A stretch of 64,000 bases of DNA from assembly GCA_964016885.1 (NCBI GenBank), contig OZ024742.1, positions 234,484,001 to 234,548,000 of the forward strand. The letters run 5' to 3'. The translations under genes were made by a program, and so were the position numbers. Positions 3,264-62,349 of the stretch are shown here, piece by piece. The notes under the pieces were generated by a model that saw only the letters and a list, made by a program, of their open reading frames with translations, ran no database searches and was not told the origin of the DNA. The first letter of the stretch is position 1. Each line of letters opens with the position of its first letter. Source of the DNA: Eledone cirrhosa. Lineage: Eukaryota.

Positions 3264-4860
3264 GTGTCTTTGGGTGTGTCTATAATTGTGTGTGTGCTAT
3301 GTGTAGAGGAGAGGGGAGATTATTCCAAAGTATCATATTTTGTCTCCTATCTATCTAGTGCTAACTATACACTGGCCCCCAAAGAGTTTTTGAGATTCAA
3401 CAAACATGCCTCCCCCTTTTTAAAAAAATATAATTTAGTATTAACCAATTATTCAATTAAATCTTTTATAAAGGTTTTAATTTTGTTCAAAATGGAAATA
3501 CATGCCAACAGACTGCAGGGTTTTTGAGGAAATATTTAGGCATATGTATTGGTTGAAAAAAAGTAAAAACTGTATTTTTTGAAATAAACATATCAAGATA
3601 GCTTTTAGTTGCTTTTGAGCCAAAATTAAAATATTGATAATGTACGTCTTGTACTTAACATTTTCTCAAGAGTTTTCTTCTTAAACAAATGTCATTGGAT
3701 TGGCATTTTAGTGTAGCAGATAGATTTCTGAATACTTCTATTTATGCTAAATGTTATGTAACAAAACGAAAGTAATGAAACTGATAAGCTAAATATTTAT
3801 TTCACATAAAGGTGATATGAATAGAAGATGAATAGAAGATAATGATGAATGATAACTAACAGGAATCTTTTACATAATTTACACATATCAAAACATACTT
3901 AGTTTTACTAAAACTCAAATTTTGCACATTATTATTATTACAAAGAGCCATTCCAATCTGAAAACCAGAAGCTTTGATGCAGAGACAGAGAGCCAGTCAC
4001 ATGCCACACACCTACGCCACCACCACAACCAAAACCACTACCACTACCACCACCACTGCTACAACCCCCACCCCACCGTAACAAGAGCCAAACTTGGAAG
4101 CATGCAAAAGCAACAAATTTGACAGCCTGTTGTAGCGCTCAGCAAAAAGGAAGAGTGCTGTGGAAAATTAATAATAGTAGCTCAGATAGTATCAGCAGAG
4201 AGTGGTTGTGCAGGAGACAAATCATTTGGTTTCAATGGTCTACCCTATATGGCCTTTATGGAGACATTCCAGATTTGATTGCCCCTCTATTTGCAGATGT
4301 CTATAACAACTGGCAACAGACTAGGAGCATTCTCTGGGACAAATGAATAGCAAATAGTAGTAAAACAGGAAGGGCATCATTAATAATTTCTGGCCTATAA
4401 CTCTGCTGAACATACATACAAGCTCAATAAGTAATGTATATATACACACATATGTACCCACACCACCTAGACACCCTTTGATTCCACAGTACTCATCGAA
4501 ATTTAAAATATTAAAATAAAATAAAGATTATTAATCCACTCATAGTTTAAAGTATTTTAAATACTTAGCACAACAAACAGTAACGGCTACAAAAAATTGT
4601 AATTTACAAACACTAGCATACATACAAATATAATAAGTGTCATATACACCTATCTTCACACCCACAACTTCCACACACACATGCATTTAACTCCTTAATA
4701 TCAGAACTATTTTAATAAAAATGTGGTTGTTTTAATCAAATGCCTATAATTTAAGGTAATTTAAGTGTTAGCTTAGCTACCCATAACATACCCCAAGTGT
4801 CATGTACTGTACTCTGTTGAATAATGGTCTAACTAGTTTTAAATTATCCTGATATATATA

Positions 4861-7800
4861 TCATCATCATCATCATCATCATTTTACGTCCGCTTTTCCC
4901 TGCTTACAAGGGTGGGACGGGTCTTATTCAGCACAGCATCTCTCCACTCGTCACGGTCCCTCGTCATCTCCACCGTGAGCTTCAATGATCTGAGGTCAGT
5001 TCTCACCACCTCCACCCATGTTTTTCGTGGTCTACCTCTACCACGTCTTCCTTCAACTGGCAATTCTTCACCCATCGGTCATCCTCCATGTGCATCACAT
5101 GTCCATACCACCTCAGTCTCCTCTCCCGTACACTACATTCTATCCCTCTCAGACACAGTTTCTCTCTCAACACATTTATGCTGGGTCGTTCACGCACATT
5201 TACACTGCACATCCAACGGAGCATGCTTGCCTCATTTCTCTCCAGCCGTCGCATATCCTCTGCAGTTGCTGCCCATGTCTCACTACCATGCAGCATCGCG
5301 CTCCTCACACAGGCACCATACAACCGGCCGGGAGAAACCCTTCTTCGTCAACAGAGGAAGCAGCTCCCTAAACTTCTTCCAACCCGTCCTTATTCTAGAT
5401 ACTATGGCCTCGGAACACCCTCCTCCCATGCTAATCTGATCTCCTAGGTACCGGAAGCTATCCACCACTTCTATAGCGCCCTCCTGCATTTGAAAAATGT
5501 GTCTATCAATGTGACTTCTACTGTCTAATTTCCCTGTACATCTACTGCATACATATTTCTCCCTACCTGTTAGTTTTCCTGCTATCCCGCTACATCTCTT
5601 GTGTACCCAGGATCTGCATTGTGTGCATTTTATAGAATTTATGCCAGTTCCTTTTCTGCATATCGAACATGGCCATTTCCCTGACGGAATCAGGGTTTTG
5701 TCCTCTTTTCTACTCATCAACACTTTTGTCTTAGCTAGATTCACTCTCAGTCCTCTTGCTTCCAACTGCTGTTTCCATAGCCAGAATTTATTCTCTAGCT
5801 CCTCTACTGATTCTGCTATAAGAACCAGATTGTCAGCATAGAGAAGTTCCCATGGACAGCCAGTCTTAAACTCCCCTGTTATGGCTTGGAGGACTATAAT
5901 GAACAAGAGCGGGCTGAGGACCGAACTCTGATGTACTCCTACTTGTATCTGGAATTCCTCACTAAACTCCATTCCTACCCTGACTTTACTGAGAGTACCT
6001 CTGTACAAAGTTTGCACTGTCCTCACAAGCCATTCCTCAACACCTAGCTTCCTTAAGGACCACCAGATGACAGATCGGGGTACCCTATCAAAGGCCTTCT
6101 CTAGGTCAACAAAGGCTAAGTATAGTGGCTTATTCTTCTCTAAGAACCTCTCTTGCAATTGTCTCACCAAGAAGAGGGCATCTGTTGTACTCTTCCCAGG
6201 CACAAAACCAAACTGCATCTCATCTAGTTTGACCCTTTCTCTAATTAGTTGTGCTAAAATCCTTTCTGCCACTTTCATAACCTGATCTATCAGCTTTATA
6301 CCCCTATAATTGCTCCTCTCCAAAGCATCCCCTTTACCTTTGTAGCAATTTATGAGAATACTGCTGCACCAGTCTTTGGGTATGACACCACCATATATAG
6401 CCTGATTGATGATGCGTGCAACCAGTTTAGTGCCTACGTCCCCTGATGCCTTCAGCATCTCAGCAACTATTCCGGATGGTCTGGCAGCCTTACCATTTTT
6501 CATTTCCCTAATCGCCTCTTGGACCCTATATTCGTCAATCTCAATAGCTGGTCCCTCTGTCGGATCTACCAAGGGTAATTTCTCTCTCTCCCATTCGTTC
6601 TCCACATTCATCAGTCTCTCATAATGACATTTCCAGGCCTCCTTTTTCTGATCATTCATGACACTAAGCACACCGGCATCATCCCGGACACATTTATCTC
6701 CAACAACATCCTGATTTGCATTGACACACTGCCTTGCAATGTGGAACACCGCACGCCTCTGATCTTCCCGTCGCAGAACATTGGCAAACCTCCTACTCTC
6801 TGCCTCCCTGCGTGCTAAGTACACCTGACATCTAGCTTCTCTCTTAGTGGCTGTATATTCTTCCCTACTCCCACCCTTTTTCCAAGCCTTCCATGCTAGT
6901 CTTTTGTCTCTAATAGCCTTATCTACTGTGGCTGTTCCACCACCAGGTCACTCTCTGTCTGGTTGGAGCTCTGCTCCAGCCACAGGTTTCATCAGTGGCC
7001 TACAGCAAGTTGTCACGTAAGAAATTCCAGTTATTATCTATGTCATACGTCTCTAAATCGTCGTCTTTTTTGTCATATACATCTTGAAGGGCTTTCCTAA
7101 ATTAGTATTTTAGTGAAAGGTCTTTTAGCTTCCAGACCTTTCTTCTCCACACCTTCCTATATGTCTCATTCCATCTCTTGCTTACAGAGATATCACTAAC
7201 AACTAACCTATGCTGTGGGGTACATTCTTCCCCAGGGTATGCCTTGGTATTAGACACTATCTGCCTGTCCCGCTGCCTAACTAGTAAGAAGTCAATCTGG
7301 CTTATGTGCTCACCAGATTTGTAAGTTATTAGGTGATTGGCAGGTTTCTGGAAGTTTGTGTTGCAAATAGTCAATGTACTCGCATCACAAAATTCAAGAA
7401 GTCTCACTCCTTCTTCATTTCTTGAACCGTAACCGTGCCCACCATGTACCCCAGTGTAACCATCCTGGAGCTGTCCAACATGACCTTTGAAGTCTCCTGC
7501 TAGCATAACGATGTCTCCGTCCTCTGTCATTGCAGTTGTTTGCAAAAGTTGCTCATAAAAGCAGTCTTTCTCATCTTTGCCTAGGCCTGCTTGGGGAGCA
7601 TAGGCTGAGATGATTGTCAGTAGTCTCCTACCTACAACTAATCTAAGCTTAATTATTCGATTACTAACTCGAACTACCTCTATTGTCTTATTGATCCATT
7701 TCTCAGCCAGGAAAATGCCTACTCCCCCTAACCCATCATCCTTACCTACCCAGAATAGCTTATAGCTAAGACGCTTGCTTACGACTAGTCTCGCAGAGGC

Positions 7801-8140
7801 ACCTCTCCATCTCACCTCTTGCATGCAGCACACATCCACCTGCCTTCTCTCCAGCATCTCCGCTATTTCAGCAGATCTACCTCTGAGAGTGCCAACATTA
7901 AGTGTTGCAACTCTGAGATGCGACGTCTTCATATTTTGTTGTTGTTCCTATTTGTTGCTGTGCTGATAAGCTTTTTGGCATTGATACACTGGTTGGATGC
8001 CCTTCCTAACACCAGCGCCACTTTACAGCATGGACTGGGTGCTTTTATTTGTGCCACCAGCACTAGAGAGGATGTCTTACTAGACTCAAGGGCCCTCTCT
8101 ACCCCTCCATTTTACAGCATGGTCATTAAAAAAAAAAAAA
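4861..8140 (-). mobile_element. Near full-length RTE-clade LINE (AP endonuclease + RT + PHD-like finger), inactivated
   Basis: ORF 7102-7932 is an APE (TLNVGTL, QEVRW, SAYAPQ, GDFKGH, IDFLL). ORF 5283-6824 is an RT (NYRGIKL, QFGF, FVDLEKAFD, YADN). The C-terminal RRLRWYGHV...GRGRPRKTW segment is in shifted frames. (GAT)n tail at 4861-4882. A stop, frameshifts and YADD>YADN are present. Confidence 0.95.
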
Positions 8141-9229
8141 AAAAAACTTATTGACACGACGTACACACACACACACACACACCAACACTCATGCATACAA
8201 ACCACAACCACACACACGCCACTCACATACCAACACTCATTCATGCATACAATCACACACACCACTCACAAACATACATATATATATATATATTACCGAC
8301 AGTACTGATACAAATACAAAATCAAAATCATGTCAACTGTTGACCTTTCCCAGTCCAGTTCAGCTTGTATATAATAATAATAATAATTGTTTGCTTTACG
8401 CTGGTAATGGCGGTGGTGGTGGTGGATGGTGTCAGTGTGGTGGTGGTGGATGGTCAGTGATGGTGGTGGTGGATGGTCAGTGATGGTGGTGGCAGTTGTT
8501 GGTGCTGTAGTTGTTATTGCAGTTGCTGCTGCTGTTAGCCAAAGCCAAGGCATTCAAACCTTATCTTGATTTATGGGTTCATTTATTGTTATGATCTTTT
8601 GACTATTCCTCATGCTCTGGTAATAAAACAATTATGTTCGTAGTGTATTTCAGTGTTTTGATTAATAGAAAGTTTTTTTCCTTTGTTATGTTTAGTGATG
8701 TAGTGTAGCCAGATATCTTCTAAAGGTGTTCTTGAGTTTAATGTATTGTGTCATCTAATTGTTCGTATTTGGAGCCATTTTGGTAACATTACGATATAAA
8801 CAATATGGGTAGTAGTGTTTCAGTACATTTATAACTAAGTTGTGTATGCTCTAGTGGGAAGAATATTTATTTAGTTATGAGTGTGAGACTTAGACTATTA
8901 GATAAGTAAACGTGTAAATATGTAGAGTGCATGTGAAGTGTTGAATAGATTAGGAGTAATATACATATTGATGTTCACACCTACCTTTATATATTGAGAC
9001 ACACAGTAGTTATGGAGTTTAAGTTGTAAATAGAAGTAAAAGTAGAAATTAGGGATGAGAGGGTAAAGATTACAAATTTCAAGAGTCCTTATCAAATGAA
9101 TAAATGCATGAATAAGCTGATAATTGGTTATATACATGAATATTATGCATATCATGCTTAATGTATAATTATGGTCAATGGTGCAATCATGAAAAGGTGG
9201 AGTTGTAAACTCTAAACTAAATGAGATCT

Positions 9230-24918: not shown

Positions 24919-25006
24919 AAAGTGGAAAATGGTGATTTAAACTGGATAATTCCAAATAAATTTTTGGCTTTCTGTGGACCTCATTCAAAGCAAGCTCGAG
25001 AAGATG
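24919..25006 (+). CDS. CDC14: CDC14 coding exon ([30 protein letters not shown])
   Basis: tttcag acceptor and GTAAG donor; 88 nt, phase 0/1. Carries the [17 protein letters not shown] motif. Confidence 0.96.
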
Positions 25007-37137: not shown

Positions 37138-38430
37138 ACAGGGTGATTAAAAAAAAACTCTGTCCATTTTTCTTTTTCTCTACATTATTCATCTTTTGAC
37201 AGAAACTGATGAAACTCCAAATATATTTAGATCAAACCATTAAAGTAATGTATCAAAAATTCACTATCTTCTGATGTTTCTGTCCTGAGTTACAGCACAT
37301 GTTCCAAGTGAACCCTCATTTGAATCCATTCATTTTTGAGGTGCATGAATTTTAGAATAACATCTTTACAAACAGACCTAGGTACAGCTCTGATCTCTTC
37401 CCTGGTGTGTTCCTTTAGTTCAGTGATGGTCCTAGGTTTGTTGACACATGCCCTATCCTTCAGAAAACCACAAAGAATGAAATCTGGGGGGCTGTGTGGG
37501 GTCCTCTCAAAATAAGTCTTCAAACTGATACATGATTTCCAAAGTTATTTTTCAGCAATTTCCATGTGAGAGCTTGCCCGATCTTGCTAGAACCAGAACT
37601 TATTCATTAGAGATGGGTAAATGGTCTGTAGCTCCTTTTTGAAGTCTTCCAGGGCCTCCTTTGTGATTGTAGCAGTGATACCATTTTCTTCAAAGAAGAA
37701 TGAGACAATCAAGCCTCTCTCAAATGGCAGCCCAGATGGCACATTTAGCCTAGTGGAGAGGTTTCACAGACAATTTAGTGGGTTTCTCTGACTCCCAGAA
37801 CACATTGTTCTTAGAGTTAATCTTCCCTCTAAGTGAATGTAGGATTCATCAGAGGTCCACAGTTGATTCAGAAAATTTTGATTGCTTTCCATCTTCAACA
37901 TTTTCTCATTCTTGGTCTTATCAGCTGCACTAAGTTTTTATTTAGTCTGTATTCTGTAGGAGTACTTAAGATCCTTTTTGACAACTCTTCTGAAAGTTTC
38001 TGTGAAGAGACCCAAGGATTGGCTTCTCCTGCACAGTGATCATTTTCGGCTATATTTAACTGACTCTCGGACCATGTCAATAACTTCCTGTGTACACTTC
38101 ATGGGTCATCAAGAATGTGTAGAACAGTCCTCAGAAATTGTATTGAGTTCTCCACTGTCCCATAAGTCTCAAACTTCTTCTCCCAGTTTTGTATATTGGT
38201 TTTGAAGGGAGATTTGTCTGTTATAAAATTTTTCCTGGACCTGCTTGTATGAGCCACACTTATAGTAGTGTTTTACACAGAAAATCTGGTGCTAGAGCTT
38301 CCATTGAGATCTTGTCTTCACAGATATGTCATGAAATTAAAGTTGATTGGTTAGAAAATGAATATATAATGACACAAAATAATTGCAGAGCCAGTTTTTT
38401 TTTAGTTATTATATCAGCATCACTGTTTTA
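37138..38430 (-). mobile_element. Tc1/mariner-superfamily transposon fossil
   Basis: TA-CAGGGTG terminus at 37138. Minus translation SPPDFILCGFLKDRACVNKPRTITELKEHTREEI is typical of Tc1/mariner transposase C-termini. The opposite end is degenerate. Confidence 0.75.
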
Positions 38431-38669
38431 GATCTATTTACCATGGTTGCATTGGTTAGACAGGTTGTCATGTCTTGATGCTAAACAGGTCAGATGACAG
38501 TGTCTTGCTCATATGTTCCATTCTGGCATGATTTGTATAGCTAGATGCTTTTCTTAATGCCAACTATTTCATGGGATGTACAGAGTTCATTTTCTTGTGG
38601 TAGCAACACTATCACCTGCCAAGGTGGACTGGTTTTGTTTTTTAAATTTAATTTTTTGATTTTGTAGAA

Positions 38670-41600
38670 CCAGCACTACCACTTTACAGTATGGGCTGGA
38701 TACATTTTGTCATGACACCAACATTACAACTTTACAGTGTGAACTGGATGCCATTTTATTGTGACACCATCACTACCACTTTACAGTGTGGGCTAGGTGC
38801 ACTTTATTGTGACACCATCACTACCACTTTACAGTGTGGGCTAGGTGCACTTTATTGTGACACCATCACTACCACTTTACATTTTGGGATAGGTGCACTT
38901 TATTGTGACACCATTACTACCACTTTACAGTATGGGCTAGGTGCACGTTATTGTGACACCATCACTACCACTTTACAGTGTGGGCTAGGTGCACTTTATT
39001 GTGACACCATCACTACCACTTTACAGTGTGGGATAGGTGCACTTTATTGTGACACCATCATTACCACTTTACAGTGTGGGATAGGTGCACTTTATTGTGA
39101 CACCATCACTACCACTTTACAGTGTGGGCTAGGTGCACTTTATTGTGACACCATCACTACCACTTTACAGTGTGGGATAGGTGCACTTTATTGTGACACC
39201 ATCACTACCACTTTACAGTGTGAGCTAGGTGTACTTTATTGTGACACCATCACTACCACTTTACAGCGTGGGCTAGGTGCACTTTATTGTGACACCATCA
39301 CTACCACTTTACAGTGTGGGCTAGGTGCACTTTATTGTGACACCATCACTACCACTTTACAGTGTGGGCTAGGTGCACTTTATTGTGACACCATCACTAC
39401 CACTTTACAGTGTGGGCTGGATGCCATTTTCTTATGACACCATCACTACCACTTTCCATTTTGGGATAGGTGCACTTTATTGTGACACCATCACTACCAC
39501 TTTACAGTGTGGGCTGGATGCCATTTTCTTATGACACCATCACTACCACTTTACAGTGTGGGCTAGGTGCACTTTATTGTGACACCATCACTACCACTTT
39601 ACAGTGTGGGATAGGTGCACTTTATTGTGACACCATCACTACCACTTTACAGTGTGGGATAGGTGCACTTTATTGTGACACCATCACTACCACTTTACAG
39701 CGTGGGCTAGGTGCACTTTATTGTGACACCATCACTACCACTTTACAGTGTGGGCTGGATGCCATTTTATTGTGACACAATCACCACCACTTTACAGTGT
39801 GGGCTAGGTGCACTTTATTGTGACACCATCACTACCACTTTACAGTGTGGGCTGGATGCACTTTATTGTGACACCATCACTACCACTTTACATTTTGGGA
39901 TAGGTGCACTTTATTGTGACACCATCACTACCACTTTACAGTGTGGGATAGGTGCACTTTATTGTGACACCATCACTACCACTTTACAGTGTGGGCTAGG
40001 TGCACTTTATTGTGACACCATCACTACCACTTTACAGTGTGGGCTAGGTGCACTTTATTGTGACACCATCACTACCACTTTACAGTGTGGGCTGGATGCC
40101 ATTTTATTGTGACACCATCACTACCACTTTACAGTGTGGGCTAGGTGCACTTTATTGTGACACCATCACTACCACTTTACAGTGTGGGCTGGATGCCATT
40201 TTCTTATGACACCATCACTACCACTTTCCATTTTGGGATAGGTGCACTTTATTGTGACACCATCACTACCACTTTACAGTGTGGGCTGGATGCCATTTTC
40301 TTATGACACCATCACTACCACTTTACAGTGTGGGCTAGGTGCACTTTATTGTGACACCATCACTACCACTTTACAGTGTGGGATAGGTGCACTTTATTGT
40401 GACACCATCACTACCACTTTACAGTGTGGGATAGGTGCACTTTATTGTGACACCATCACTACCACTTTACAGCGTGGGCTAGGTGCACTTTATTGTGACA
40501 CCATCACTACCACTTTACAGTGTGGGCTGGATGCCATTTTATTGTGACACAATCACCACCACTTTACAGTGTGGGCTAGGTGCACTTTATTGTGACACCA
40601 TCAATACCACTTTACAGTATGGGCTGGATGCACTTTATTGTGACACCATCACTACCACTTTACATTTTGGGATAGGTGCACTTTATTGTGACACCATCAC
40701 TACCACTTTACAGTGTGGGATAGGTGCACTTTATTGTGACACCATCACTACCACTTTACAGTGTGGGCTAGGTGCACTTTATTGTGACACCATCACTACC
40801 ACTTTACAGTGTGGGCTAGGTGCACTTTATTGAGACACCATCACTACCACTTTACAGTGTGGGATAGGTGCACTTTATTGTGACACCATCACTACCACTT
40901 TACAGTGTGGGCTGGATGCACTTTATTGTGACACCATCACTACCACTTTACAGTGTGGGCTAGGTGCACTTTATTGTGACACCATCACTACCACTTTACA
41001 GTGTGGGATAGGTGCACTTTATTGTGACACCATCACTACCACTTTACAGTGTGGGATAGGTGCACTTTATTGTGACACCATCACTACCACTTTACAGTGT
41101 GGGCTGGATGCCATTTTCTTATGACACCATCACTACCACTTTGGGATAGGTGCACTTTATTGTGACGCCATCACTACCACTTTACAGTGTGGGCTGGATG
41201 CCATTTTCTTATGACACCATCACTACCACTTTGGGATAGGTGCACTTTATTGTGACACCATCACTACCACTTTACAGTGTGGGGTGGATGCCATTTTCTT
41301 ATGACACCATCACTACCACTTTAGGATAGGTGCACTTTATTGTGACAATATCACTACCACTTTACAGTGTGGGATAGGTGCACTTTATTGTGACACCATC
41401 ACTACCACTTTACAGTGTGGGCTGGATGCCATTTTCTTATGACACCATCACTACCACTTTGGGATAGGTGCACTTTATTGTGACACCATCACTACCACTT
41501 TACAGTGTGGGATAGGTGCACTTTATTGTGACACCATCACTACCACTTTACAGTGTGGGCTAGGTGCACTTTATTGTGACACCATTACTACCACTTTACA

Positions 41601-44600
41601 GTGTGGGCTGGATGCCATTTTCTTATGACACCATCACTACCACTTTACAGTGTGGGCTAGGTGCACTTTATTGTGACACCATCACTACCACTTTACAGTG
41701 TGGGATAGGTGCACTTTATTGTGACACCATCACTACCACTTTACAGTGTGGGGTAGGTGCACTTTATTGTGACACCATCACTACCACTTTACAGCGTGGG
41801 CTAGGTGCACTTTATTGTGACACCATCACTACCACTTTACAGTGTGGGCTGGATGCCATTTTATTGTGACACAATCACCACCACTTTACAGTGTGGGCTA
41901 GGTTCACTTTATTGTGACACCATCACTACCACTTTACAGTGTGGGCTGGATGCACTTTATTGTGACACCATCACTACCACTTTACATTTTGGGATAGGTG
42001 CACTTTATTGTGACACCATCACTACCACTTTACAGTGTGGGCTAGGTGCACTTTATTGTGACACCATCACTACCACTTTACAGTGTGGGCTGAATGCACT
42101 TTATTATGACACCATCACTACCACTTTACAGTGTGGGCTAGGTGCACTTTATTGTGACACCATCACTACCACTTTACAGTGTGGGCTAGGTGCACTTTAT
42201 TGTGACACCATCACTACCACTTTACAGTGTGGGCTAGGTGCACTTTATTGTGACACTATCACTACCACTTTACATTTTGGGATAGGTGCACTTTATTGTG
42301 ACACCATTACTACCACTTTACATTTTGGGCTAGGTGCACTTTATTGTGACACCATCACTACACTTTACAGTGTGGGCTGGATGCACTTTATTGTGACACC
42401 ATCACTACCACTTTACAGTGTGGGCTGGATGCCATTTTCTTATGACACCATCACTACCACTTTACAGTGTGGGCTAGGTGCACTTTATTGTGACACCATC
42501 ACTACCACTTTACAGTGTGGGCTAGGTGCACTTTATTGTGACACCATCACTACCACTTTACAGTGTGAGCTAGGTGCACTTTATTGTGACACCATCACTA
42601 CCACTTTACAGTGTGGGCTAGGTGCACTTTATTGTGACACCATCACTACCGCTTTACATTTTGGGATAGGTGCACTTTATTGTGACACCATTACTACCAC
42701 TTTACATTTTGGGATAGGTGCACTTTATTGTGACACCATTACTACCACTTTACAGTGTGGGCTAGGTGCACTTTATTGTGACACCATCACTACCACTTTA
42801 CAGTGTGAAATAGGTGCACTTTATTGTGACACCATCACTACCACTTTACAGTGTGGGATAGGTGCACTTTATTGTGACACCATCACTACCACTTTACAGT
42901 GTGGGCTGGATGCCATTTTCTTATGACACCATCACTACCACTTTACAGTGTGGGCTAGGTGCACTTTATTGTGACACCATCACTACCACTTTACAGTGTG
43001 GGATAGGTGCACTTTATTGTGACACCATCACTACCACTTTACAGTGTGGGCTGGATGCACTTTATTGTGACACCATCACTACCACTTTACAGTGTGGGAT
43101 AGGTGCACTTTATTGTGACACCATCACTACCACTTTACAGTGTGGGCTGGATGCCATTTTCTTATGACACCATCACTACCACTTTACAGTGTGGGCTAGG
43201 TGCACTTTATTGTGACACCATCACTACCACTTTACAGTGTGGGCTAGGTGCACTTTATTGTGACACCACCACTACCTCTTTACAGTGTGGGATAGGTGCA
43301 TTTTATTGTGACACCATCACTACCACTTTACAGTGTGGGCTGGATGCCATTTTCTTATGACACCATCACTACCACTTTACAGTGTGGGCTAGGTGCACTT
43401 TATTGTGACACCATCACTACCACTTTACAGTGTGGGCTGGATGCCATTTTCTTATGACACCATCACTACCACTTTACAGTGTGGGCTAGGTGCACTTTAT
43501 TGTGACACCATCACTACCACTTTACAGTGTGAGCTAGGTGCACTTTATTGTGACACCATCACTACCACTTTACAGTGTGGGCTAGGTGCACTTTATTGTG
43601 ACACCATCACTACCGCTTTACATTTTGGGATAGGTGCACTTTATTGTGACACCATTACTACCACTTTACATTTTGGGATAGGTGCACTTTATTGTGACAC
43701 CATTACTACCACTTTACAGTGTGGGCTAGGTGCACTTTATTGTGACACCATCACTACCACTTTACAGTGTGAAATAGGTGCACTTTATTGTGACACCATC
43801 ACTACCACTTTACAGTGTGGGATAGGTGCACTTTATTGTGACACCATCACTACCACTTTACAGTGTGGGCTGGATGCCATTTTCTTATGACACCATCACT
43901 ACCACTTTACAGTGTGGGCTAGGTGCACTTTATTGTGACACCATCACTACCACTTTACAGTGTGGGATAGGTGCACTTTATTGTGACACCATCACTACCA
44001 CTTTACAGTGTGGGCTGGATGCACTTTATTGTGACACCATCACTACCACTTTACAGTGTGGGATAGGTGCACTTTATTGTGACACCATCACTACCACTTT
44101 ACAGTGTGGGCTGGATGCCATTTTCTTATGACACCATCACTACCACTTTACAGTGTGGGCTAGGTGCACTTTATTGTGACACCATCACTACCACTTTACA
44201 GTGTGGGCTAGGTGCACTTTATTGTGACACCACCACTACCTCTTTACAGTGTGGGATAGGTGCATTTTATTGTGACACCATCACTACCACTTTACAGTGT
44301 GGGCTGGATGCCATTTTCTTATGACACCATCACTACCACTTTACAGTGTGGGCTAGGTGCACTTTATTGTGACACCATCACTACCACTTTACAGTGTGGG
44401 CTGGATGCCATTTTCTTATGACACCATCACTACCACTTTACAGTGTGGGCTAGGTGCACTTTATTGTGACACCATCACTACCACTTTACAGTGTGGGATA
44501 GGTGCACTTTATTGTGACACCATCACTACCACTTTACAGTGTGGGATAGGTGCACTTTATTGTGACACCATCACTACCACTTTACAGCGTGGGCTAGGTG

Positions 44601-47600
44601 CACTTTATTGTGACACCATCACTACCACTTTACAGTGTGGGCTGGATGCCATTTTATTGTGACACAATCACCACCACTTTACAGTGTGGGCTAGGTGCAC
44701 TTTATTGTGACACCATCACTACCACTTTACAGTGTGGGCTGGATGCACTTTATTGTGACACCATCACTACCACTTTACATTTTGGGATAGGTGCACTTTA
44801 TTGTGACACCATCACTACCACTTTACAGTGTGGGCTGGATGCCATTTTCTTATGACACCATCACTACCACTTTCCATTTTGGGATAGGTGCACTTTATTG
44901 TGACACCATCACTACCACTTTACAGTGTGGGCTGGATGCCATTTTCTTATGACACCATCACTACCACTTTACAGTGTGGGCTAGGTGCACTTTATTGTGA
45001 CACCATCACTACCACTTTACAGTGTGGGCTGGATGCACTTTATTGTGACACCATCACTACCACTTTACAGTGTGGGCTAGGTGCACTTTATTGTGACACC
45101 ATCACTACCACTTTACAGTGTGAGCTAGGTGCACTTTATTGTGACACCATCACTACCACTTTACAGTGTGGGCTAGGTGCACTTTATTGTGACACCATCA
45201 CTACCACTTTACATTTTGGGATAGGTGCACTTTATTGTGACACCATTACTACCACTTTACATTTTGGGATAGGTGCACTTTATTGTGACACCATTACTAC
45301 CACTTTACAGTGTGGGCTAGGTGCACTTTATTGTGACACCATCACTACCACTTTACAGTGTGAAATAGGTGCACTTTATTGTGACACCATCACTACCACT
45401 TTACAGTGTGGGATAGGTGCACTTTATTGTGACACCATCACTACCACTTTACAGTGTGGGCTGGATGCCATTTTCTTATGACACCATCACTACCACTTTA
45501 CAGTGTGGGCTAGGTGCACTTTATTGTGACACCATCACTACCACTTTACAGTGTGGGATAGGTGCACTTTATTGTGACACCATCACTACCACTTTACAGT
45601 GTGGGCTGGATGCACTTTATTGTGACACCATCACTACCACTTTACAGTGTGGGATAGGTGCACTTTATTGTGACACCATCACTACCACTTTACAGTGTGG
45701 GCTGGATTCCATTTTCTTATGACACCATCACTACCACTTTACAGTGTGGGCTAGGTGCACTTTATTGTGACACCATCACTACCACTTTACAGTGTGGGCT
45801 AGGTGCACTTTATTGTGACACCACCACTACCACTTTACAGTGTGGGATAGGTGCATTTTATTGTGACACCATCACTACCACTTTACAGTGTGGGCTGGAT
45901 GCCATTTTCTTATGACACCATCACTACCACTTTACATTTTGGGATAGGTGCACTTTATTGTGACACCACCGCTACCACTTTACAGTGTGGGCTGGATGCC
46001 ATTTTCTTATGACACCATCACTACCACTTTACATTTTGGGATAGGTGCACTTTATTGTGACACCATTACTACCACTTTACAGTGTTGGATAGGTGCACTT
46101 TATTGTGACACCATCACTACCACTTTACAGTGTGGGATAGGTGCACTTTATTGTGACACCATCACTACCACTTTACAGTGTGGGCTAGGTGCACTTTATT
46201 GTGACACCATCACTACCACTTTACAGTGTGGGCTGGATGCACTTTATTGTGACACCATCACTACCACTTTACAGTGTGGGCTGGATGCCATTTTCTTATG
46301 ACACCATCACTACCACTTTACAGTGTGGGCTAGGTGCACTTTATTGTGACACCATCACTACCACTTTATAGTGTGGGCTGGATGCCATTTTCTTATGACA
46401 CCATCATTACCACTTTACATTTTGGGATAGGTGCACTTTATTGTGACACCATCACTACCACTTTACAGTGTGGGCTGGATGCACTTTATTGTGACACCAT
46501 CACTACCACTTTACAGTGTGGGATAGGTGCACTTTATTGTGACACCATCACTACCACTTTACAGTGTGGGCTGGATTCCATTTTCTTATGACACCATCAC
46601 TACCACTTTACAGTGTGGGCTAGGTGCACTTTATTGTGACACCATCACTACCACTTTACAGTGTGGGCTAGGTGCACTTTATTGTGACACCACCACTACC
46701 ACTTTACAGTGTGGGATAGGTGCATTTTATTGTGACACCATCACTACCACTTTACAGTGTGGGCTGGATGCCATTTTCTTATGACACCATCACTACCACT
46801 TTACATTTTGGGATAGGTGCACTTTATTGTGACACCACCGCTACCACTTTACAGTGTGGGCTGGATGCCATTTTCTTATGACACCATCACTACCACTTTA
46901 CATTTTGGGATAGGTGCACTTTATTGTGACACCATTACTACCACTTTACAGTGTTGGATAGGTGCACTTTATTGTGACACCATCACTACCACTTTACAGT
47001 GTGGGATAGGTGCACTTTATTGTGACACCATCACTACCACTTTACAGTGTGGGCTAGGTGCACTTTATTGTGACACCATCACTACCACTTTACAGTGTGG
47101 GCTGGATGCACTTTATTGTGACACCATCACTACCACTTTACAGTGTGGGCTGGATGCCATTTTCTTATGACACCATCACTACCACTTTACAGTGTGGGCT
47201 AGGTGCACTTTATTGTGACACCATCACTACCACTTTATAGTGTGGGCTGGATGCCATTTTCTTATGACACCATCATTACCACTTTACATTTTGGGATAGG
47301 TGCACTTTATTGTGACACCATCACTACCACTTTACAGTGTGGGCTAGGTGCACTTTATTGTGACACCATCACTACCACTTTACAGTGTGGGCTGGATGCC
47401 ATTTTCTTATGACACCATCACTACCACTTTACAGTGTGGGCTAGGTGCACTTTATTGTGACACCATCACTACCACTTTATAGTGTGGGCTGGATGCCATT
47501 TTCTTATGACACCATCACTACCACTTTACATTTTGGGATAGGTGCACTTTATTGTGACACCATCACTACCACTTTACAGTGTGGGATAGGTGCACTTTAT

Positions 47601-48202
47601 TGTGACACTATTACTACCACTTTACAGTGTGGGCTAGGTGCACTTTATTGTGACACCATCACTACCACTTTACAGTGTGGGCTAGGTGTACTTTATTGTG
47701 ACACCATCACTACCACTTTACAGTGTGGGCTAGGTGCACTTTATTGTGACACCATCACTACCACTTTACAGTGTGGGCTAGGTGCACTTTATTGTGACAC
47801 CCTCACTACCACTTTACATTTTGGGATAGGTGCACTTTATTGTGACACCATCACTACCACTTTACAGTGTGGGATAGGTGCACTTTATTATGACACCATC
47901 ACTACCACTTTACAGTGTGGGCTAGGTGCACTTTATTGTGACACCATCACTACCACTTTACAGTGTGGGATAGGTGCACTTTATTGTGACACCATCACTA
48001 CCACTTTACAGTGTGGGCTGGATGCACTTTATTGTGACACCATCACTACCACTTTACAGCGTGGGCTAGGTGCACTTTATTGTGACACCATCACTACCAC
48101 TTTACAGTGTGGGCTGGATGCCATTTTCTTATGACACCATCACTACCACTTTACAGTGTGGGCTGGATGCCATTTTCTTATGACACCATCACTACCACTT
48201 TA
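38670..48202. repeat. ~9.5-kb minisatellite/satellite, 48/49-bp unit, roughly 195-200 copies
   Basis: Consensus GTGACACCATCACTACCACTTTACAGTGTGGGCTAGGTGCACTTTATT. Recurrent variants: GGATAGG, CATTTTGGG, and a 49-bp CTGGATGCCATTTTCTTATGAC form. Shorter units occur at ~41130-41470. Confidence 0.98.
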
Positions 48203-48345
48203 TGTATGCTGCTGATAGATAATGCTTGGTTGGTAGATTATAATTCTTTTTTCTGATACTCTCTTGCCGTTACAATTTCTTAGTATTGATCCTGTTTACT
48301 TCATGTTTCTTTATATACCCTTTACTTCATGTTTCATTATATACC

Positions 48346-49416
48346 CTTCTTCTTCTTCTTCTTCTTCTTCTTGAAAGTGTCATGGGGGAAGAGTCCTCAA
48401 ACACTCGCTCGAGCACGTCCTGTCAGAAGCAATCATCTCTAATCAATCCAGAAGCAACCATCTCTAATGGATCCCAAAGTTAGACCAGCCAAGCTCAGGG
48501 ATGTTATCAAACCATCTTCTCCTGGGTCTCCTGCTGGTTGGTTTTGCGATTCTTTCCTGATACATTCTAACCACATGCCCATAATATTGGAGCTATGATC
48601 TTTCAATTCGGAGAAGTAGTAGCTCTTGTTTTGTAGACCTCAAAAAGGCATATGACCATGTTCCTCGGGATCTGCTGTGGAAAGTTCTGTAGAAGTATGG
48701 GATTGATGGTCGGCCCTGCTGTCTCTACACGAATGCCTGATTATTTGTATTCAGATAAATGGTGCTAAATTGAAACCATTCAATGTGGGTGTCTGCCAAG
48801 GGTGCATACTGAAACCTCTCTTGTTCATTATTTTCATGAACAGGATTGACATGTGCAGCTGGATTGGAAGTGATATCAAGACTGGCAGGTGTAAAATCAG
48901 TCAGCTGGAATTTGCAGATGACATGGGTGACTTAACTTGACAGAAGGTGTTCTCCGACTTGCACTTGATAGGTTTGATGCCAGGTGTTGCATGACTGGAA
49001 TGAAAATCAGTGCTGCGAAAACTAAGACACTCGTCCTCTCAAGGAAGCCTGCTCAGTGCATTCTACATATGAATGGAATTCCACTGAGACATGTGGAGAA
49101 GTTCAAGTATCTTGGAGCCATGTTCATGAGTGATGGAAGGCAGGAGGCTGAATTAAGTGCAAGAATTGTAGGAGCTACTGCAGTAATATGCCAGCTTCAG
49201 CATTCTGCAGTCAGAAGAAGGGAGGAGGGTGTAAAAGTCAAACTTGCTATCTTCAATTTGGTATTCATGCCAACCCTTACCTATGGCCATGAATCTTGGG
49301 TAATTACCAAAAGAATACGATCGTGAATACAAGTGGCCAAAATGGGATTCCTCCTAAGGGTCTTTGGAGTAATTTTACTCGATAAAGTGCGTAGCTCGGA
49401 GATCAGAGAGTCACTC
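48346..49416 (-). mobile_element. 5'-inverted RTE-like LINE (second family, (AAG)n tail)
   Basis: Minus-strand 3' end at 48346-48626 with a (CTT)n tract on the plus strand. Plus-strand RT fragment at 48627-49416 (CFVDLKKAYDHVPR, FADD, VEKFKYLG, PTLTYGHESW). Confidence 0.85.
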
Positions 49417-50855: not shown

Positions 50856-51150
50856 CATCATCATCATCATCAACGTTTAACGTCCGTGTTCCACGCTTGC
50901 ATGGGTTTGGACGGGGGTAGTCCCACTTGAGGCAAGAGTGATTGTCTTGCTCGCATAGGACTGTCTGGCAGGTTTTCTACAGTTGGATGCCCTTCCTAAC
51001 ACCAACCACATTTACAGTGTGGGTCTGGGAGGTTTTTACCGTGTTGCCTACACGGCCACATTACAGCGTGGACTGTGTGTTTTTTTGTCGTGACACCTAC
51101 ACGATCTCATTTGTTTCGGCCTCGATGGCGCGGCACCAACATAACTTTAC
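50856..51150 (-). mobile_element. Headless non-autonomous RTE-type element / 3' UTR of the adjacent RT
   Basis: Reverse complement of the 34308-34608 family. Its (GAT)n tail abuts (TA)n. Confidence 0.88.
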
Positions 51151-51206
51151 ATAGAACGGGGTGGTGTGGATGGGGTGGGGGTGGTGACGGGACGGGGTGT
51201 ATTTTG

Positions 51207-52822
51207 TTAGAGATGCCTACTGGCAAGGCGGGTCTTCTCTGTTACTGAGTACCGCCAAAGGTCTCGGTCCAGTGACATTGTCTTGGAGAGGTGTAAGTGT
51301 GTGAAGTCGGAGTTTATCAGCTCGTCCCAGGTTTTTCTAGGTCTGCCTATTCCGTGGCTACCGTCTATCTTTATTGCCCTGCACTTTGTTATACAGCTAT
51401 CGACTTTCATGCGCATCACGTGTCCATACCAACGTAGCCTTCTCTCGAGTAAACAACATCTGATCCCTCTTATCTCTAATTTTTTCCTTAGTTCGTTTAT
51501 GCTTTGCCGTTCACGTATATTACTGTTACACATCCAGCGGAGCATGCAAGCTTCGTTCCTCTCTAGTCTGCGTATATCCTCTGCACACAATGCCCAGGTC
51601 TCACTGCCATGCAACATTGCTGTTCGTATGCAGGCATCGTACAACCTGCCTTTCATTTTTAGGGAGAACCCTTTAGCAGCTAATAGTGGTATAAGCTCTC
51701 TGAACTTTTTCCAACCAGTTCTGACTCTAGCTACAGTACTTTCAGAGCACCCTCGCCCACTGCTGATTTTATCGCCCAGGTAACGGAAGCTGTCCACTAT
51801 TTCTATAGAACCCTCTGCGCAATTGAAAGAGCTAGTATTTTGTGGGCACTTGTTGCTACTTATTGCACCAGAACACCGGCCACATGTAAAATCTATGTTC
51901 TTAGTTAGCTTACCTGTGATCCCACTACATCTTTTATGCACCCATACTTTGCATTTAGGACATAAAATGGAGTTTCTACCTACGCCTTTCCTACACACCG
52001 AGCACGACCATTTCCCAGAAGGGACCGCCGCCTTGTTTTCTTTCCTACAAACTAGAACTTTGGTCTTAGCCAGGTTAATTTTAAGTCCTTTTGACTCTAG
52101 GCCGTGCTTCCATGTTTGGAATTTCTTCTCTAGCTCGGCCATTGATTCCGCTATGAGTGTCAGGTCGTCTGCGTATAGGAGTTCCCATGGGCAGCCGGTC
52201 TTGAACTCCTCTGTTATAGCCTGAAGGGCAATAATAAATAGTAGGGGGATGAGAACAGAGCCCTGATGGACGCCAACTTTTACACTAAACTCTTCACTAT
52301 ATTCGTTGTTAATTCTAACCTTGCTGACTGTTTCTTTATACATGGCTTGTATAGCCCTCACAAGCCATTCGTCAACGCCTAGTTTTCTAAGAGCCCACCA
52401 GATAATGGAGCGGGGGACTCTGTCGAAGGCTTTCTCCAAGTCGACAAAAGCTAAGTAGAGGGGTTTACCTTTAGCTAGGAACTTCTCCTGTAGTTGTCGT
52501 ACTATGAAAAGAGCGTCTGTGGTACTTTTGCCTGACACAAACCCGAACTGCATTTCATCTAGGTCAATTCTCTCTCTGATTAGTTGCGCTATTACTTTTT
52601 CCGTGACCTTCATGACCTGGTCGATTAATTTAATGCCTCTATAGTTACTCCTATCTAGGGCGTCTCCTTTACCCTTATAACAGTTAACGATGATGCTGCT
52701 ATGCCAGTCCTTCGGAACAACCCCATTCTGTACGACATGGTTAACTATGCGAGTGACCATGGTGTGTCCCACCGTGCCAGATGCCTTCAGCATCTCAGCA
52801 ACTATTTCCGAAGACCCAGCCG
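51207..52822 (-). mobile_element. 5'-truncated RTE LINE with an uninterrupted RT + PHD-like finger + C-terminus frame (~537 codons)
   Basis: Stop-free from AAGSSEIVAEMLKA to RHL*. Contains NYRGIKL, QFGF, FVDLEKAFD, HQGS, intact YADD, FRYLG and RRLRWYGHV. No endonuclease. The ORF-track start is a read-through from the flanking repeat. Confidence 0.93.
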
Positions 52823-52840
52823 CCATATATATACATATAT

Positions 52841-53116
52841 ATCCAGGCCGAAACAAATGAGATCGTGTAGGTGTCACAACAAAAAAACACACAGTCCACG
52901 CTGTAATGTGGCCGTGTAGGCCACACGGTAAAAACCTCCCAGACCCACACTGTAAATGTGGTTGGTGTTAGGAAGGGCATCCAACTGTAGAAAACCTGCC
53001 AGACAGTCCTATGCGAGCAAGACAATCACTCTTGCCTCAAGTGGGACTACCCCCGTCCAAACCCATGCAAGCGTGGAACACGGACATTAAACGTTGATGA
53101 TGATGATGATGATGAT
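52841..53116 (+). mobile_element. Headless non-autonomous RTE-type element, inverted relative to 50856-51150
   Basis: About 4 differences by eye from the reverse complement of 50856-51125. Flanked by (TA)n. Confidence 0.9.
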
Positions 53117-55054: not shown

Positions 55055-55350
55055 AATAATAAAATGCACCCAGTATACCCTGTAGTATTAGTGTTGGTAC
55101 CACAATAAAATGTACCCGCTGTATAAAGTGGTACTACTGGTGTCAAGAAAAACATCCTATGCTGGTGTCACAAAAACACCTCCAACACACCATATCAAGT
55201 TGTTAGCATTAGGAAGGGCATCCAACCATAGAAAACATGCCAAATATAGAATGCAACAATCAAGATTAGTCATGCTGACCCATCTGGTCTCATTCTATGA
55301 CAACCTCTTCAAGCCATGCCAGTGCGGAAATGGGATGTAAAATGATGATA
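55055..55350 (+). mobile_element. Old non-autonomous RTE-type element with 2-3 internal ~45-50-bp repeats
   Basis: aataaaatgcaccc...ggtaccac / aataaaatgtaccc...aaagtggtactactggtgtca repeats, then TTAGGAAGGGCATCCAACC and a (GAT) tail. Confidence 0.65.
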
Positions 55351-55597: not shown

Positions 55598-55985
55598 TGA
55601 GGCACATGGCTTAGTGTTTAGAGCATTGGGCTTGCAATCGAAAGGTTGTGAGTTCAATTCTCGGACCGGGTGATGTGTTGTTTCCTTGAGCAAGACACTT
55701 TATTTCACATTGCTCCAGTTTACTCACCTGTAGAAATGAGATGATAGGACTGGGGTCTCTATCATTCCACTGTAAAGTGGTCGTGGAGGCGCCATGGAAA
55801 AAAAGCACCCAGCCCACACTGTAAATGAGGTTGGTGTTAGGAAGGGCATCCAGCTGTAGAAATCAAACCAGAATCAGTTCCCGTATGAGCAAGACAAGGT
55901 CAGCCGACCAGACACTGCTCACAACAGGACAACCCGTCTAACCCATGCTAGCGTAGAAGAACGGACGTAAAACAGTGATGATGAT
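55598..55985 (+). mobile_element. tRNA/CORE SINE, copy 4, with an alternative RTE-type tail
   Basis: Same head and core. After cagttcccgt it carries a different, longer 3' segment ending CCCATGCTAGCGTAG...GGACGTAAAAC..GATGATG. Confidence 0.85.
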
Positions 55986-57003
55986 ATGAGGCATGTTTAT
56001 TAAATAGCAGTGATCTAAAGAATAAAAAGTATTTCAAATACGATTAGACAAAATAACTGGTCTTATTCATCCACAAAATTAGTTTTGAAATCAGCATAAA
56101 AAATACATTTATGTCCACAAAAATCCTTTCCAATGGATGTTCTTTGTTGACCAGTGTTATATACTGTATAATATCATTAAACCTGTTGTCTTTGAATACA
56201 TTGTTATAATAAACAGTTTTTATAGACACAAGTTGCTTTAAGAGAAACTATAGCTGTAACATTCTTGCTCAGATGATCTCATTAATGTTATTCTTTCTCT
56301 TCTTTATTTAGTTGTTTATTAATTTATATCTATTTTCTTTGAATTTTTATTTCTTATCCTATATATATATTTTTCATTGTTAACATTATTAACTATTTTA
56401 TAAGGGAGGTGGATCAGACAAATTATTTGCAGTATGTAGTTATGACTTTCTACATCTTGAGTTCAACTTTGCCTTTCTTCCTTCTGGGTTGATAAAATAA
56501 AGTACCAGTTAAAATAAAGTACCATTTAATATAAAGTACTCTTTAAAATAAAGTACCATTTAAGATAAAATACCATTTAATATAAAGTACCAATTAAAAT
56601 AATGTACTGATAAAATAAACTGCCAAATTGCTGGCCTTGTTCCAGCATTAGAAATAATTATTTACTATCTTATAGTATTTTATTTTATTCTATCATTTAC
56701 AATGTCATCAATTCTTGTCATTCCCACATTTCTGTTAATCCATCATTCTGTCATTCCATTTTCTTCTTCAAAAAGCTGGTGTACATTTTCATCCAGCATG
56801 ATTTTCAACAGTCTTTAGAACCTATTGTATTAATTTTCAGTTAGTCAAGTGCTGTCCAACTTTCACAGTTATGGGATGATAAAGGAATGTGAAACTAATA
56901 CCTGTAACTTGTGAGGTTTCAGAATATACATTCCACACACACACACACATACACACACATACATACACATACACACAGATATATGTATGTACATACATTC
57001 GTT

Positions 57004-57738
57004 CATTCATCAACGTTTAACGTCCGTGTTCCACGCTTGCATGGGTTTGGACGGGGGTTTTCCCACTTGAGGCAAGAGTGATTATCTTGCTCGCATAGGA
57101 CTATCTGGCGGGTTTTCTACAGCTGGATGCCCTTCCTAACACCAACCACATTTACAGTGTGGGGCTGGGAGGTTTTTACCGTGTTGCCTACACGGCCACA
57201 TTACAGCGTGGACTGTCTGGCGGGTTTTCTACAGCTGGATGCCCTTCCTAACACCAACCACATTTACAGTGTGGGGCTGGGAGGTTTTTACCGTGTTGCC
57301 TACACGGCCACATTACAGCGTGGACTGTCTGGCGGGTTTTCTACAGCTGGATGCCCTTCCTAACACCAACCACATTTACAGTGTGGGGCTGGGAGGTTTT
57401 TACCGTGTTGCCTACACGGCCACATTACAGCGTGGACTGTCTGGCGGGTTTTCTACAGCTGGATGCCCTTCCTAACACCAACCACATTTACAGTGTGGGG
57501 TTGGGAGGTTTTTACCGTGTTGCCTACACGGCCACATTACAGCGTGGACTGTCTGGCGGGTTTTCTACAGCTGGATGCCCTTCCTAACACCAACCACATT
57601 TACAGTGTGCGGCTGGGAGGTTTTTACCGTGTTGCCTACACGGCCACATTACAGCGTGAACTGTGTGTTTTATGACGTGACACCTACACGATCTCATTTG
57701 TTTCGGCCTGGATGTTGTGGCACCAACATAACTTTACA
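57004..57738 (-). mobile_element. Headless non-autonomous RTE-type element with a 5x112-bp internal tandem expansion
   Basis: Same ends as 34308-34608. The unit GGACTGTCTGGCGGG...TTACAGCGT is repeated with period 112 (ORF-track starts 57127, 57239, 57351, 57463, 57575). Confidence 0.92.
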
Positions 57739-58764
57739 TACATACATAATGATAGCTGCAACTTGATTTCGAGTAATGCTATCGCTTGATACTTAAGCAA
57801 GAATGTCATGGACATGGCTTTTCATCTTGCTAGGGACTTGCCTATGGTCAACAATACCATGCATCGCAAAAAACATCACATATTAAGCGATGCCTGTGCT
57901 TGAAGCTTTTCTAAGTGAGGAAAGGCCATGCATCGGGCCAATCCTACTCTCTGAACATCGAATGCATTTGCCCCAAAAGAACTGGTCTATATCATTGGAT
58001 GCAAACGAAGTCGCAGGTTTTATATCAGAGCGACCTTCTCCTAGAGAGATATCTTAATAAAGACTAGGAGTCTCTCACTCCACAAATAAAAAAAAAAATT
58101 ACATACAAACATACATTGTCTGCAGCCTGATGATGTTTGTTACCCCCTACCAGTAAGTGTTACTGGTTGGTTATTGTTTTGTTGGGAGAGTTGTGATATG
58201 GCTTTGAAAGGCATGTGTGATTTTTACTTTTCCTTGTGCAGTAGGGGTCTAGTGAGGGGTTGCATGTTGGTTTATGGATTGCATTTACTTGAATTCATGG
58301 ATAGCATTAGTTTGTTGTAAATTTATTTATGTTCAAGTTAAAGCAATTGACAGTCTTAGTTACTTATGTCATATCTTGAGACTGTAAACTGAGTTCCCTG
58401 TTGACAGGTCTGAGATAAAGGTTCCACAGCGGGATCTGCTGTTATTGAGTTTGCTTGAATTCATGAATAGATTTAGTTTGTTAGATTTATTTACATTCAA
58501 GCTAAGGCAAGTCTCAGTTACTTGTGTGTGTTGCTAACTTTCTTTCTGTTGTTGTTACTACCATTCTGTCTGTTGTTGCAGTTATACTCATTGCTACTCT
58601 TTATGGCATTCTATATAATATCAGTGCAACCATATGCACAAAATCAAAATAGCTATCTTATGCACAGTTCTTCTTACAGTCATTCAAGAAACATGAACCA
58701 CATTCACTTACAATATGTTCTTCCACACCTTCTGTTTAAGAGCAGTGTTGTTGTTATTGTTGTT

Positions 58765-61054: not shown

Positions 61055-61285
61055 GATACCCAGTTCATTCTCCTGAAGCCTATCTGCCATATTTTAGAGA
61101 ACATAATGTTACTGCTGTTGTCCGCCTAAACAAGAAAATTTATGATGCCAAACGTTTCACTGATGCTGGTTTAGATCATTATGATCTCTTTTTTGTTGAT
61201 GGAAGTGTTCCAACCGATAATATTGTTAGGAAGTTCTTGGAAATTAGTGAAAAATGTAATGGTGGCCTTGCTATACATTGTAAAG
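61055..61285 (+). CDS. CDC14: CDC14 coding exon ([14 protein letters not shown]...[14 protein letters not shown]...[10 protein letters not shown]...AIHCK)
   Basis: ttccag acceptor and GTAGG donor; 231 nt, phase 1/1. Contains the general-acid loop (FVDG) and the start of the HCK catalytic motif. Confidence 0.97.
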
Positions 61286-62260: not shown

Positions 62261-62349
62261 GGAGAGTGCATGGAGATTGATTGATTAATTGATTACAAAT
62301 GTAACTGCAATATATTGTTAACATTTTTCTTTTTTTAAATTATTTACAG

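What the first reader, a model, noticed from the sequence alone, without database searches (positions are those of the whole stretch)
38670..48202. A 9.5-kb intronic satellite that appears to have grown from the RTE 5'-UTR module
Seen: the unit ACC..ACTACCACTTTACAGTGTGGGCTAGGTGCACTTTATTGTGACACC aligns by eye to the sequence just upstream of the LINE ORF (8011-8057, ACCAGCGCCACTTTACAGCATGGACTGGGTGCTTTTATTTGTGCCACC). The 49-bp variant CTGGATGCCATTTTCTTATGACACC mirrors the neighbouring GGATGCCCTTCCTAACACC found in the LINE and in the RTE-tail SINEs. The array starts inside a decayed non-autonomous copy (~38440-38670) and begins with degenerate units. An old element at 55055-55350 has 2-3 such units. 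Inference: a low-copy retroelement repeat, possibly a promoter or RNP-binding module, expanded to about 200 copies inside a CDC14 intron. It could act as an antisense promoter array, a small-RNA source or a protein sink for the RTE family.
Basis: partly seen in the sequence, partly recalled or inferred. Interest (0 to 1): 0.75.

Follow-up and report, generated by a model that had tools for sequence, protein, structure and literature searches.

The report
Intronic minisatellite grown from LINE tail
A 9.5-kb run of about 198 short repeats in an intron of a CDC14 gene is attached to the decayed tail end of a jumping gene and likely ballooned in place from that element's own few repeats; the same repeat forms arrays at many other places in this genome, so this is an ordinary example of a known process with no sign of a job.

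Summary
The array is real: window 38669-48203, 48-bp period, about 198 units, inside a 36-kb intron of a CDC14 gene. The immediate parent is different: the array is still joined to a [units - GGAAGGGCATCC box - GAT tail] 3' end. That end is the 3' UTR of RTE-like family B and of an older family C, whose copies carry up to about 7 units. The array is not special. Related arrays occur on many chromosomes, two of 18 kb, each with its own consensus inside a decayed host, which points to separate expansions after insertion. Round-coordinate sampling (51 x 10 kb) found 47 unit runs and 4 arrays of 5 or more 48-bp units. No support for promoter, small-RNA or protein-sink roles was found; none was directly testable. 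Precedents: SINE-derived satellites in reptiles, retrotransposon-derived satellites in Lathyrus. Earlier scan notes on other pieces of this genome report a 48-bp array with a 3'-UTR origin. Verdict: new member of a known kind, low interest.

The parts
38669..48203 (-). Tandem array of 48-bp units (about 198 copies; 49- and 41-bp variants), read on minus in the sense of the parent element
38415..38668 (-). Decayed host: two diverged units, degenerate box and GAT-type 3' tail of old RTE-like family C
   Evidence: 72% to SINE 3' part; 39 other scored relatives 74-82% identical; structure of 24 relatives
42491..44495 (.). Exact tandem block duplication inside the array (1041 bp match at offset 964)
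   Evidence: shuffled unit order gives at most 239 bp
45554..47345 (.). Second exact tandem block duplication (923 bp match at offset 869)
7985..8128 (-). 5' UTR module of young RTE-like family A: one unit, a half unit further 5', and the box just before the endonuclease frame
   Evidence: (40 of 40 scored copies 98-100% identical)
4860..7947 (-). Family A LINE body: endonuclease frame 7102-7947, RT and PHD-like frame 5283-6947, short GAT tail without the module
50860..52826 (-). 5'-truncated family B LINE; its 3' UTR holds two units, box and tail (50860-51135)
57000..57740 (-). Family B 3' end with a separate 112-bp tandem (5.1 copies) covering part of the same module
   Evidence: same 112-bp repeat in L026, L075, L097
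55055..55350 (+). Old element with degenerate units, box and tail, downstream of a decayed RTE-like frame (53256-54860)
55600..55990 (+). SINE with a tRNA-like head (by eye; ARAGORN finds no tRNA gene), about 1.4 units, box and tail
24919..25006 (+). CDC14 exon upstream of the array
61055..61285 (+). CDC14 exon downstream of the array (ends in the catalytic HCKA motif)
   Evidence: next exon matched by DSPc

Best explanation
The array is a retrotransposon-derived minisatellite attached to the decayed 3' end of an RTE-like LINE in a CDC14 intron, and it likely grew in place and neutrally from the few 48-bp repeats that this LINE family carries in its 3' UTR. Shown: the homology, the attached box and tail, the short repeat runs in relatives, the locus-specific unit sequences, and exact block duplications of about 0.9-1 kb. 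Inferred: an old 5'-truncated copy inserted antisense to the gene; its distal units then multiplied by slippage and unequal exchange, first unit by unit and later in blocks of about 18-20 units; the two box-proximal units were left out of homogenisation and decayed with the tail. Inferred: the very large number of seeds makes multi-kb outliers expected.
For: Of 24 closest relatives of the host, none has more than 7 units (noisy automated count 0-7), and 4 have the end of an RT frame 5' of the units on the same strand at E 9e-24 to 6e-6. Family B shows the same order, frame then units then box then tail: 29 of the 42 listed matches cover the 441-bp junction at 88% or more. Arrays in L029 and L107 keep the family C flank on the far side, so they expanded inside a 3' UTR. 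In 13 arrays with enough units, identity within an array is 0.92-0.98 and between arrays 0.76-0.84; 228 of 237 distinct units are closest to their own locus consensus; attached hosts are 61-85% identical to the window references, apart from one young family B copy at 95%. 15 of 27 tandem runs have box and tail on the expected side, against 11% of random stretches. Arrays of 18.3 and 18.5 kb exist elsewhere. In 51 stretches of 10 kb: 47 unit runs, 4 arrays of 5 or more 48-bp units, 0 hits in reversed controls; 5 stretches were wholly unrelated tandem arrays, and 14.9% of sampled bases lie in arrays of 1 kb or more. 24 units break the hairpin and 4 delete it; 45 units change the frame.
Against: Identity alone does not single out the parent: main unit versus family A 34/48, family B 34/48, SINE 36/48, family C distal units mean 35-37, best 39. 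12 of 27 runs lack a recognisable box and tail nearby. The own-locus test is partly circular, as each consensus comes from its own units. The far flank of this array shows no family C sequence (scores 20-33) and no target-site duplication was seen, so truncation inside the repeat is inferred. The sample used round coordinates I chose and over-represents small chromosomes; the unit model was trained on anchored units. The far junction was not covered in the read contigs. Neutrality is argued from decay, not from population data.
Confidence: 0.85

Rival explanations
1. The array grew from the 5'-UTR monomer of an RTE LINE and acts as a tandem antisense promoter, like mouse L1 monomers (first reader; L1 comparison recalled).
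For: Family A carries one unit and the box in its 5' UTR in all 25 loci printed; SINEs join that module to the family A tail, the bipartite pattern of PMC5786205.
Against: The array is joined to a 3' tail, not to an endonuclease frame; family A has 1.5 units, no tandem run; in families B and C the units lie after the frame; only 12 CpG in 9.5 kb. No transcript evidence could be obtained.
Confidence: 0.05
2. Long arrays were copied as long arrays, by retrotransposition of an element with a long variable repeat or by conversion between loci.
For: The 112-bp tandem has the same boundaries and near-identical consensus at four loci with 2-6 copies, so short expansions may travel with family B. L023/L111 shows one array with its flank repeated in tandem.
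Against: For the 48-bp arrays each locus has its own consensus; three of this array's signatures occur in no other fetched locus; the host is about 25% diverged while units are about 5% diverged.
Confidence: 0.05
3. The array length is inflated or mis-assembled.
For: Two exact kb-scale tandem duplications; no contig covers 48229-48360 in runs X1-X3 or X5; depth suggests somewhat fewer copies than assembled.
Against: No N in the window; 43 distinct units in nested patterns; a 198-bp contig spans 38501-38698 without differences in X1-X3 (one sample, maybe the source of the assembly); a contig over the locus-private 49-bp variant has depth 240.7 against 9.9-11.8 for the flank in X2, roughly 20-24 copies against 29-45 per word in the assembly (the tool warns depth is no copy number).
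Confidence: 0.03
4. The array has been co-opted: its 161 minus-strand AATAAA signals would stop antisense transcription, or its length tunes CDC14 splicing.
For: 161 AATAAA on the minus strand, 0 on the gene strand.
Against: The hexamer is inherited from the parent unit; orientation may only reflect that the other orientation is harmful; nothing shows use.
Confidence: 0.02

Closest known systems
SINE-derived satellites (sSat1-3) of squamate reptiles, PMC10702118 (read parts 1, 3 and 4 of 5: abstract, background, part of results, discussion)
   Same: Tandem arrays of an internal piece of a retroelement, a few to hundreds of units, with the element's end attached on one side and sometimes both; long arrays more uniform.
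   Different: There units are about 70-290 nt, long loci are uniform between loci too, and they lean subtelomeric. Here the unit is 48 bp, already repeated in the parent, each locus has its own consensus, and this array is interstitial and intronic.
Satellites from short tandem arrays inside LTR retrotransposons of Lathyrus sativus, PMC7004042 (abstract and outline only)
   Same: A dispersed retrotransposon carries a short tandem array that occasionally expands.
   Different: LTR elements of a plant, expansion mainly at centromeres; here non-LTR elements of an animal.
Bipartite RTE derivatives and RTE-derived SINE bodies, including the Ceph-domain, PMC5786205 (read parts 1-4 of 5 and a term search of the supplement)
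   Same: A 5'-UTR piece of an RTE LINE joined to an RTE 3' tail, with a tRNA head added; swapping of parts between elements.
   Different: The box motif had 0 hits in the supplement text, so this module is not shown to be the Ceph-domain; no tandem expansion is described in the parts read; here the module also sits in the 3' UTR of coding LINE families.
SVA VNTR and mouse L1 5' monomers (recalled, no call)
   Same: Short tandem units inside a retroelement with variable copy number.
   Different: L1 monomers are 5' promoters of active elements; this array sits at a dead 3' end.

Membership tests
Retroelement-derived satellite (sSat-like) | Unit homologous to part of a dispersed retroelement | tested here: met
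   (0 of 500 shuffles)
Retroelement-derived satellite (sSat-like) | Terminal unit continues into the element's end | tested here: met
   38415-38668 box and tail
Retroelement-derived satellite (sSat-like) | Range of copy numbers across loci, few to hundreds | tested here: met
   1 to about 400 units
Retroelement-derived satellite (sSat-like) | Homogenised between loci; subtelomeric or heterochromatic | tested here: not met
   between-locus identity 0.76-0.84; this array lies at 234 of 379 Mb in an intron; chromatin not testable
RTE-clade LINE (parent families) | Endonuclease and RT coded with no ORF1, short 5' UTR | tested here: met
   Pfam Exo_endo_phos and RVT_1; endonuclease frame starts just after the box in family A
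RTE-clade LINE (parent families) | 3' tail of short tandem repeats | tested here: met
   GAT repeats in families A and B
RTE-clade LINE (parent families) | RT phylogeny places it in the RTE clade | not tested
   no reference RT set on hand; 'RTE-like' rests on architecture
Ceph-SINE domain | Sequence identity with the published CORE plus RTE-5' domain | tested here: inconclusive
   two motifs had 0 hits in the supplement text; no alignment made
Tandem 5' promoter monomers (L1-type) | Tandem monomers at the 5' end of coding elements | tested here: not met
   family A has 1.5 units; one near-full family B copy has no module at its 5' end (L076)
Tandem 5' promoter monomers (L1-type) | Promoter activity | not testable with these tools
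   no RNA run listed
Ribozyme-bearing satellites or LINE 5' ends | Hammerhead or HDV-like fold | tested here: not met
   no ribozyme family in Rfam scans of 38300-39600 or of L042, L048, L026, L027; folding z of single units 0.0 and -1.3; divergent folds could be missed

The most novel reading that the evidence does not exclude
The 48-bp unit is a portable cis-element, a small hairpin with a CUGUAAA loop, that RTE-like LINEs use in the 5' UTR (family A), in the 3' UTR (families B and C) and in a SINE, and it acts as a built-in satellite seed that has launched some tens of thousands of independent arrays; arrays in introns would be filtered by orientation through their AATAAA signals and would act as length-variable tuners of host genes such as CDC14.
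Probability: 0.1. Interest if true: 0.55.

Novelty: new member of a known kind. Interest (0 to 1): 0.2.

Why it matters
As a single locus it matters little. As a family it is a convenient natural series, from 1 unit to about 400 units at many unlinked loci with a known parent, for measuring how satellites are born and homogenised. The arrays are probably length-variable markers. The same module in the 5' UTR of one LINE family and the 3' UTR of others is a clean case of UTR swapping. Six paper searches and term look-ups in two octopus repeat papers (PMC13282606, part 1 of 3 and passages; PMC9115989, passages) showed no description of this family; Repbase and subscription papers were not searchable, so absence from print is not established.

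Tried and rejected
Coding role: one plus-strand frame is open across 48-bp units but is broken by 45 length variants; rejected. Ribozyme or known RNA family: only sub-threshold hits, mostly on simple repeats. Special RNA structure: single units fold no better than shuffles; a trimer scored z -2.95, but against base shuffles that destroy the repetition, so it was not counted. Gene conversion from the box as the source of the 49-bp variant: not needed, two substitutions from unit 2. Expression: no RNA holder listed, which is no evidence either way. RAD-seq runs X4 and X5 did not cover the unique flanks. Search with the family C flank of L107 found only 7 matches, too diverged to be useful. A sequence look-up of earlier notes found nothing. 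A fixed 5' end phase among arrays was looked at by eye (several end near ACCACTTTACA, many do not) and not pursued. Target-site duplication: none seen in 60 bp each side.
Full report
Observation. TRF finds one array at 38669-48202, period 48, 198.4 copies. It splits into 197 units: 152 of 48 bp, 40 of 49, 4 of 41 and 1 of 47, 43 distinct, mean identity 0.95 to the commonest. The first two units are degenerate (0.79, 0.86). The window has no N. Order is not random: exact matches of 1041 bp at offset 964 and 923 bp at offset 869 exist, against at most 239 bp in 30 shuffles of unit order.

Gene context. DSPn matches lie at window 1388, 9798 and 11272 and a DSPc match at 62346, all on +. The first matches human CDC14A at E 7.9e-11. 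Seven exons with AG/GT ends were located. The array lies in the intron 25007-61054. The organism is probably an octopus; that label comes from earlier AI notes and my recall, not from a test here.

Homology. The unit aligns to 8018-8056 with score 42; 0 of 500 shuffles reach it. That stretch is part of the LINE: 40 of 40 scored matches hold it joined to the endonuclease start at 98-100%, and all 25 loci printed share it. The LINE reads on minus, has endonuclease and RT domains and no ORF1; I call it family A, RTE-like by architecture. Its 5' UTR has one unit, a half unit and the box. Its 3' end has no module.

The direct parent is a 3' end. The LINE piece at 50860-52826 (family B) runs from its RT frame into two units, the box and a GAT tail; the junction recurs genome-wide. 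Among 123 unit runs in fetched DNA, 22 have an RT match 5' on the same strand and 4 on the opposite strand. One near-full family B copy has no module at its 5' end (L076). The array's own host (38415-38668) has units, box and tail in this order. Its 39 other scored relatives are only 74-82% identical. Of 24 examined, 4 follow the end of an RT frame on the same strand, and none has more than 7 units (the count is noisy, 22% of control stretches give one hit at that threshold). I call this old family C. The host aligns to the family A 5' UTR only at the box (17 of 22), but over about 150 columns to SINE and family B ends. Unit identity itself does not decide (34-39 of 48). SINEs at 3164, 15651 and 35819 join the module to a tail nearly identical to the family A tail, the bipartite pattern of PMC5786205, so a 5'-UTR origin further back is plausible but untested.

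The array is one of many. A dimer search gave 262 matches, with tandem runs on many contigs. A junction pattern gave 608 exact matches against 0 for the control; the 100 listed were all in one array. In 20 fetched stretches plus the window, 27 tandem runs were found; 15 have box and tail on the expected side, against 11% of random stretches. Within-array identity is 0.92-0.98, between-array 0.76-0.84 (13 arrays; 2 had too few units), and 228 of 237 distinct units are closest to their own locus consensus (partly circular). Two arrays reach 18.3 and 18.5 kb. L029 and L107 keep the family C flank on the far side. In 51 stretches of 10 kb at round coordinates there were 47 unit runs (25 single, 13 double), 34 with box and tail, 4 arrays of 5 or more 48-bp units in 3 stretches, and 2 arrays of the 112-bp repeat; reversed controls gave 0. 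Scaling gives about 276,000 runs (203,000-367,000) and about 23,500 arrays (6,400-60,200), Poisson limits only, with a sample biased to small chromosomes. Five of the 51 stretches were wholly unrelated tandem arrays, so a 9.5-kb array is unremarkable here.

Mechanism. Shown: seed repeats in the parent, old host, young locus-specific units, nested duplications. Inferred: antisense insertion of a 5'-truncated family C copy, expansion of its distal units by slippage and unequal exchange, later block duplications, decay of the proximal units and tail. The 49-bp variant resembles the box (p 0.002-0.01), but so do most comparisons of the oldest units, and its signature is absent from all other fetched loci; local drift on top of an old likeness between box and unit is enough.

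Function. No Rfam ribozyme or other family at threshold. The CCAC/GTGG hairpin is intact in 151 units, broken in 24 and deleted in 4. No frame is kept. The minus strand has 161 AATAAA, the gene strand none; this is inherited from the parent and is a lead, not evidence of use. Promoter, small-RNA and protein-binding roles could not be tested.

Artefact check. Contigs of one sample, possibly the assembly source, span the near junction exactly. The far flank had no coverage, so that junction is unconfirmed. Depth over the private variant suggests roughly 20-24 copies against 29-45 in the assembly, rough support for a multi-kb array.

Comparison and verdict. It works like the SINE-derived satellites of PMC10702118 and the retrotransposon-borne arrays of PMC7004042 (abstract only). 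It differs in short unit, a LINE 3'-UTR seed and homogenisation within loci only. It is a new member of a known kind. Interest 0.2.

Noticed in passing
window 57098-57664; L026, L075, L097: A 112-bp tandem of the family B 3' UTR recurs with the same boundaries at four loci (2-6 copies), bounded by a short GGACT(G/A)T match; single-copy form at 50960.
   Followed up: partly
window 50860-53115: Two near-identical family B 3' ends point away from each other around a minus-strand RT fragment, forming an inverted repeat of about 290 bp.
   Followed up: no
window 7985-8128 versus 50975-51135: The same unit-plus-box module is in the 5' UTR of family A and the 3' UTR of families B and C.
   Followed up: partly
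G000:C3:234409420-234409605 and window 1388-1495: Two DSPn matches overlap in profile positions (31-90 and 58-93); may be alignment overrun past an exon end or a duplicated exon of CDC14.
   Followed up: no
L023 and L111 (G000:C1:430.68 Mb): Three 48-bp arrays of 3.3-4.7 kb separated by an 860-bp spacer; at least the first two share the same flank, so array plus spacer is itself repeated in tandem.
   Followed up: no
L039:1099-2770 (oriented): A 37-bp deletion derivative of the unit forms its own array next to a 48-bp array; the C1 57.68 Mb array mixes 44- and 47-bp units.
   Followed up: no
L066, L069, L082, L083, L085, L089: Six of 51 sampled 10-kb stretches are almost wholly tandem arrays of unrelated units (57, 79, 277, 48, 23-45, 84 bp).
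   Followed up: no
window 8130-8490: Family A copies share a long low-complexity stretch (T run, GT-rich, CCA-rich) 5' of the module in most of 25 loci, so the 5' UTR extends well beyond 8128.
   Followed up: partly
window 48204-48360: The unique flank beyond the array had almost no depth in runs X1-X3 while the near flank was covered.
   Followed up: no
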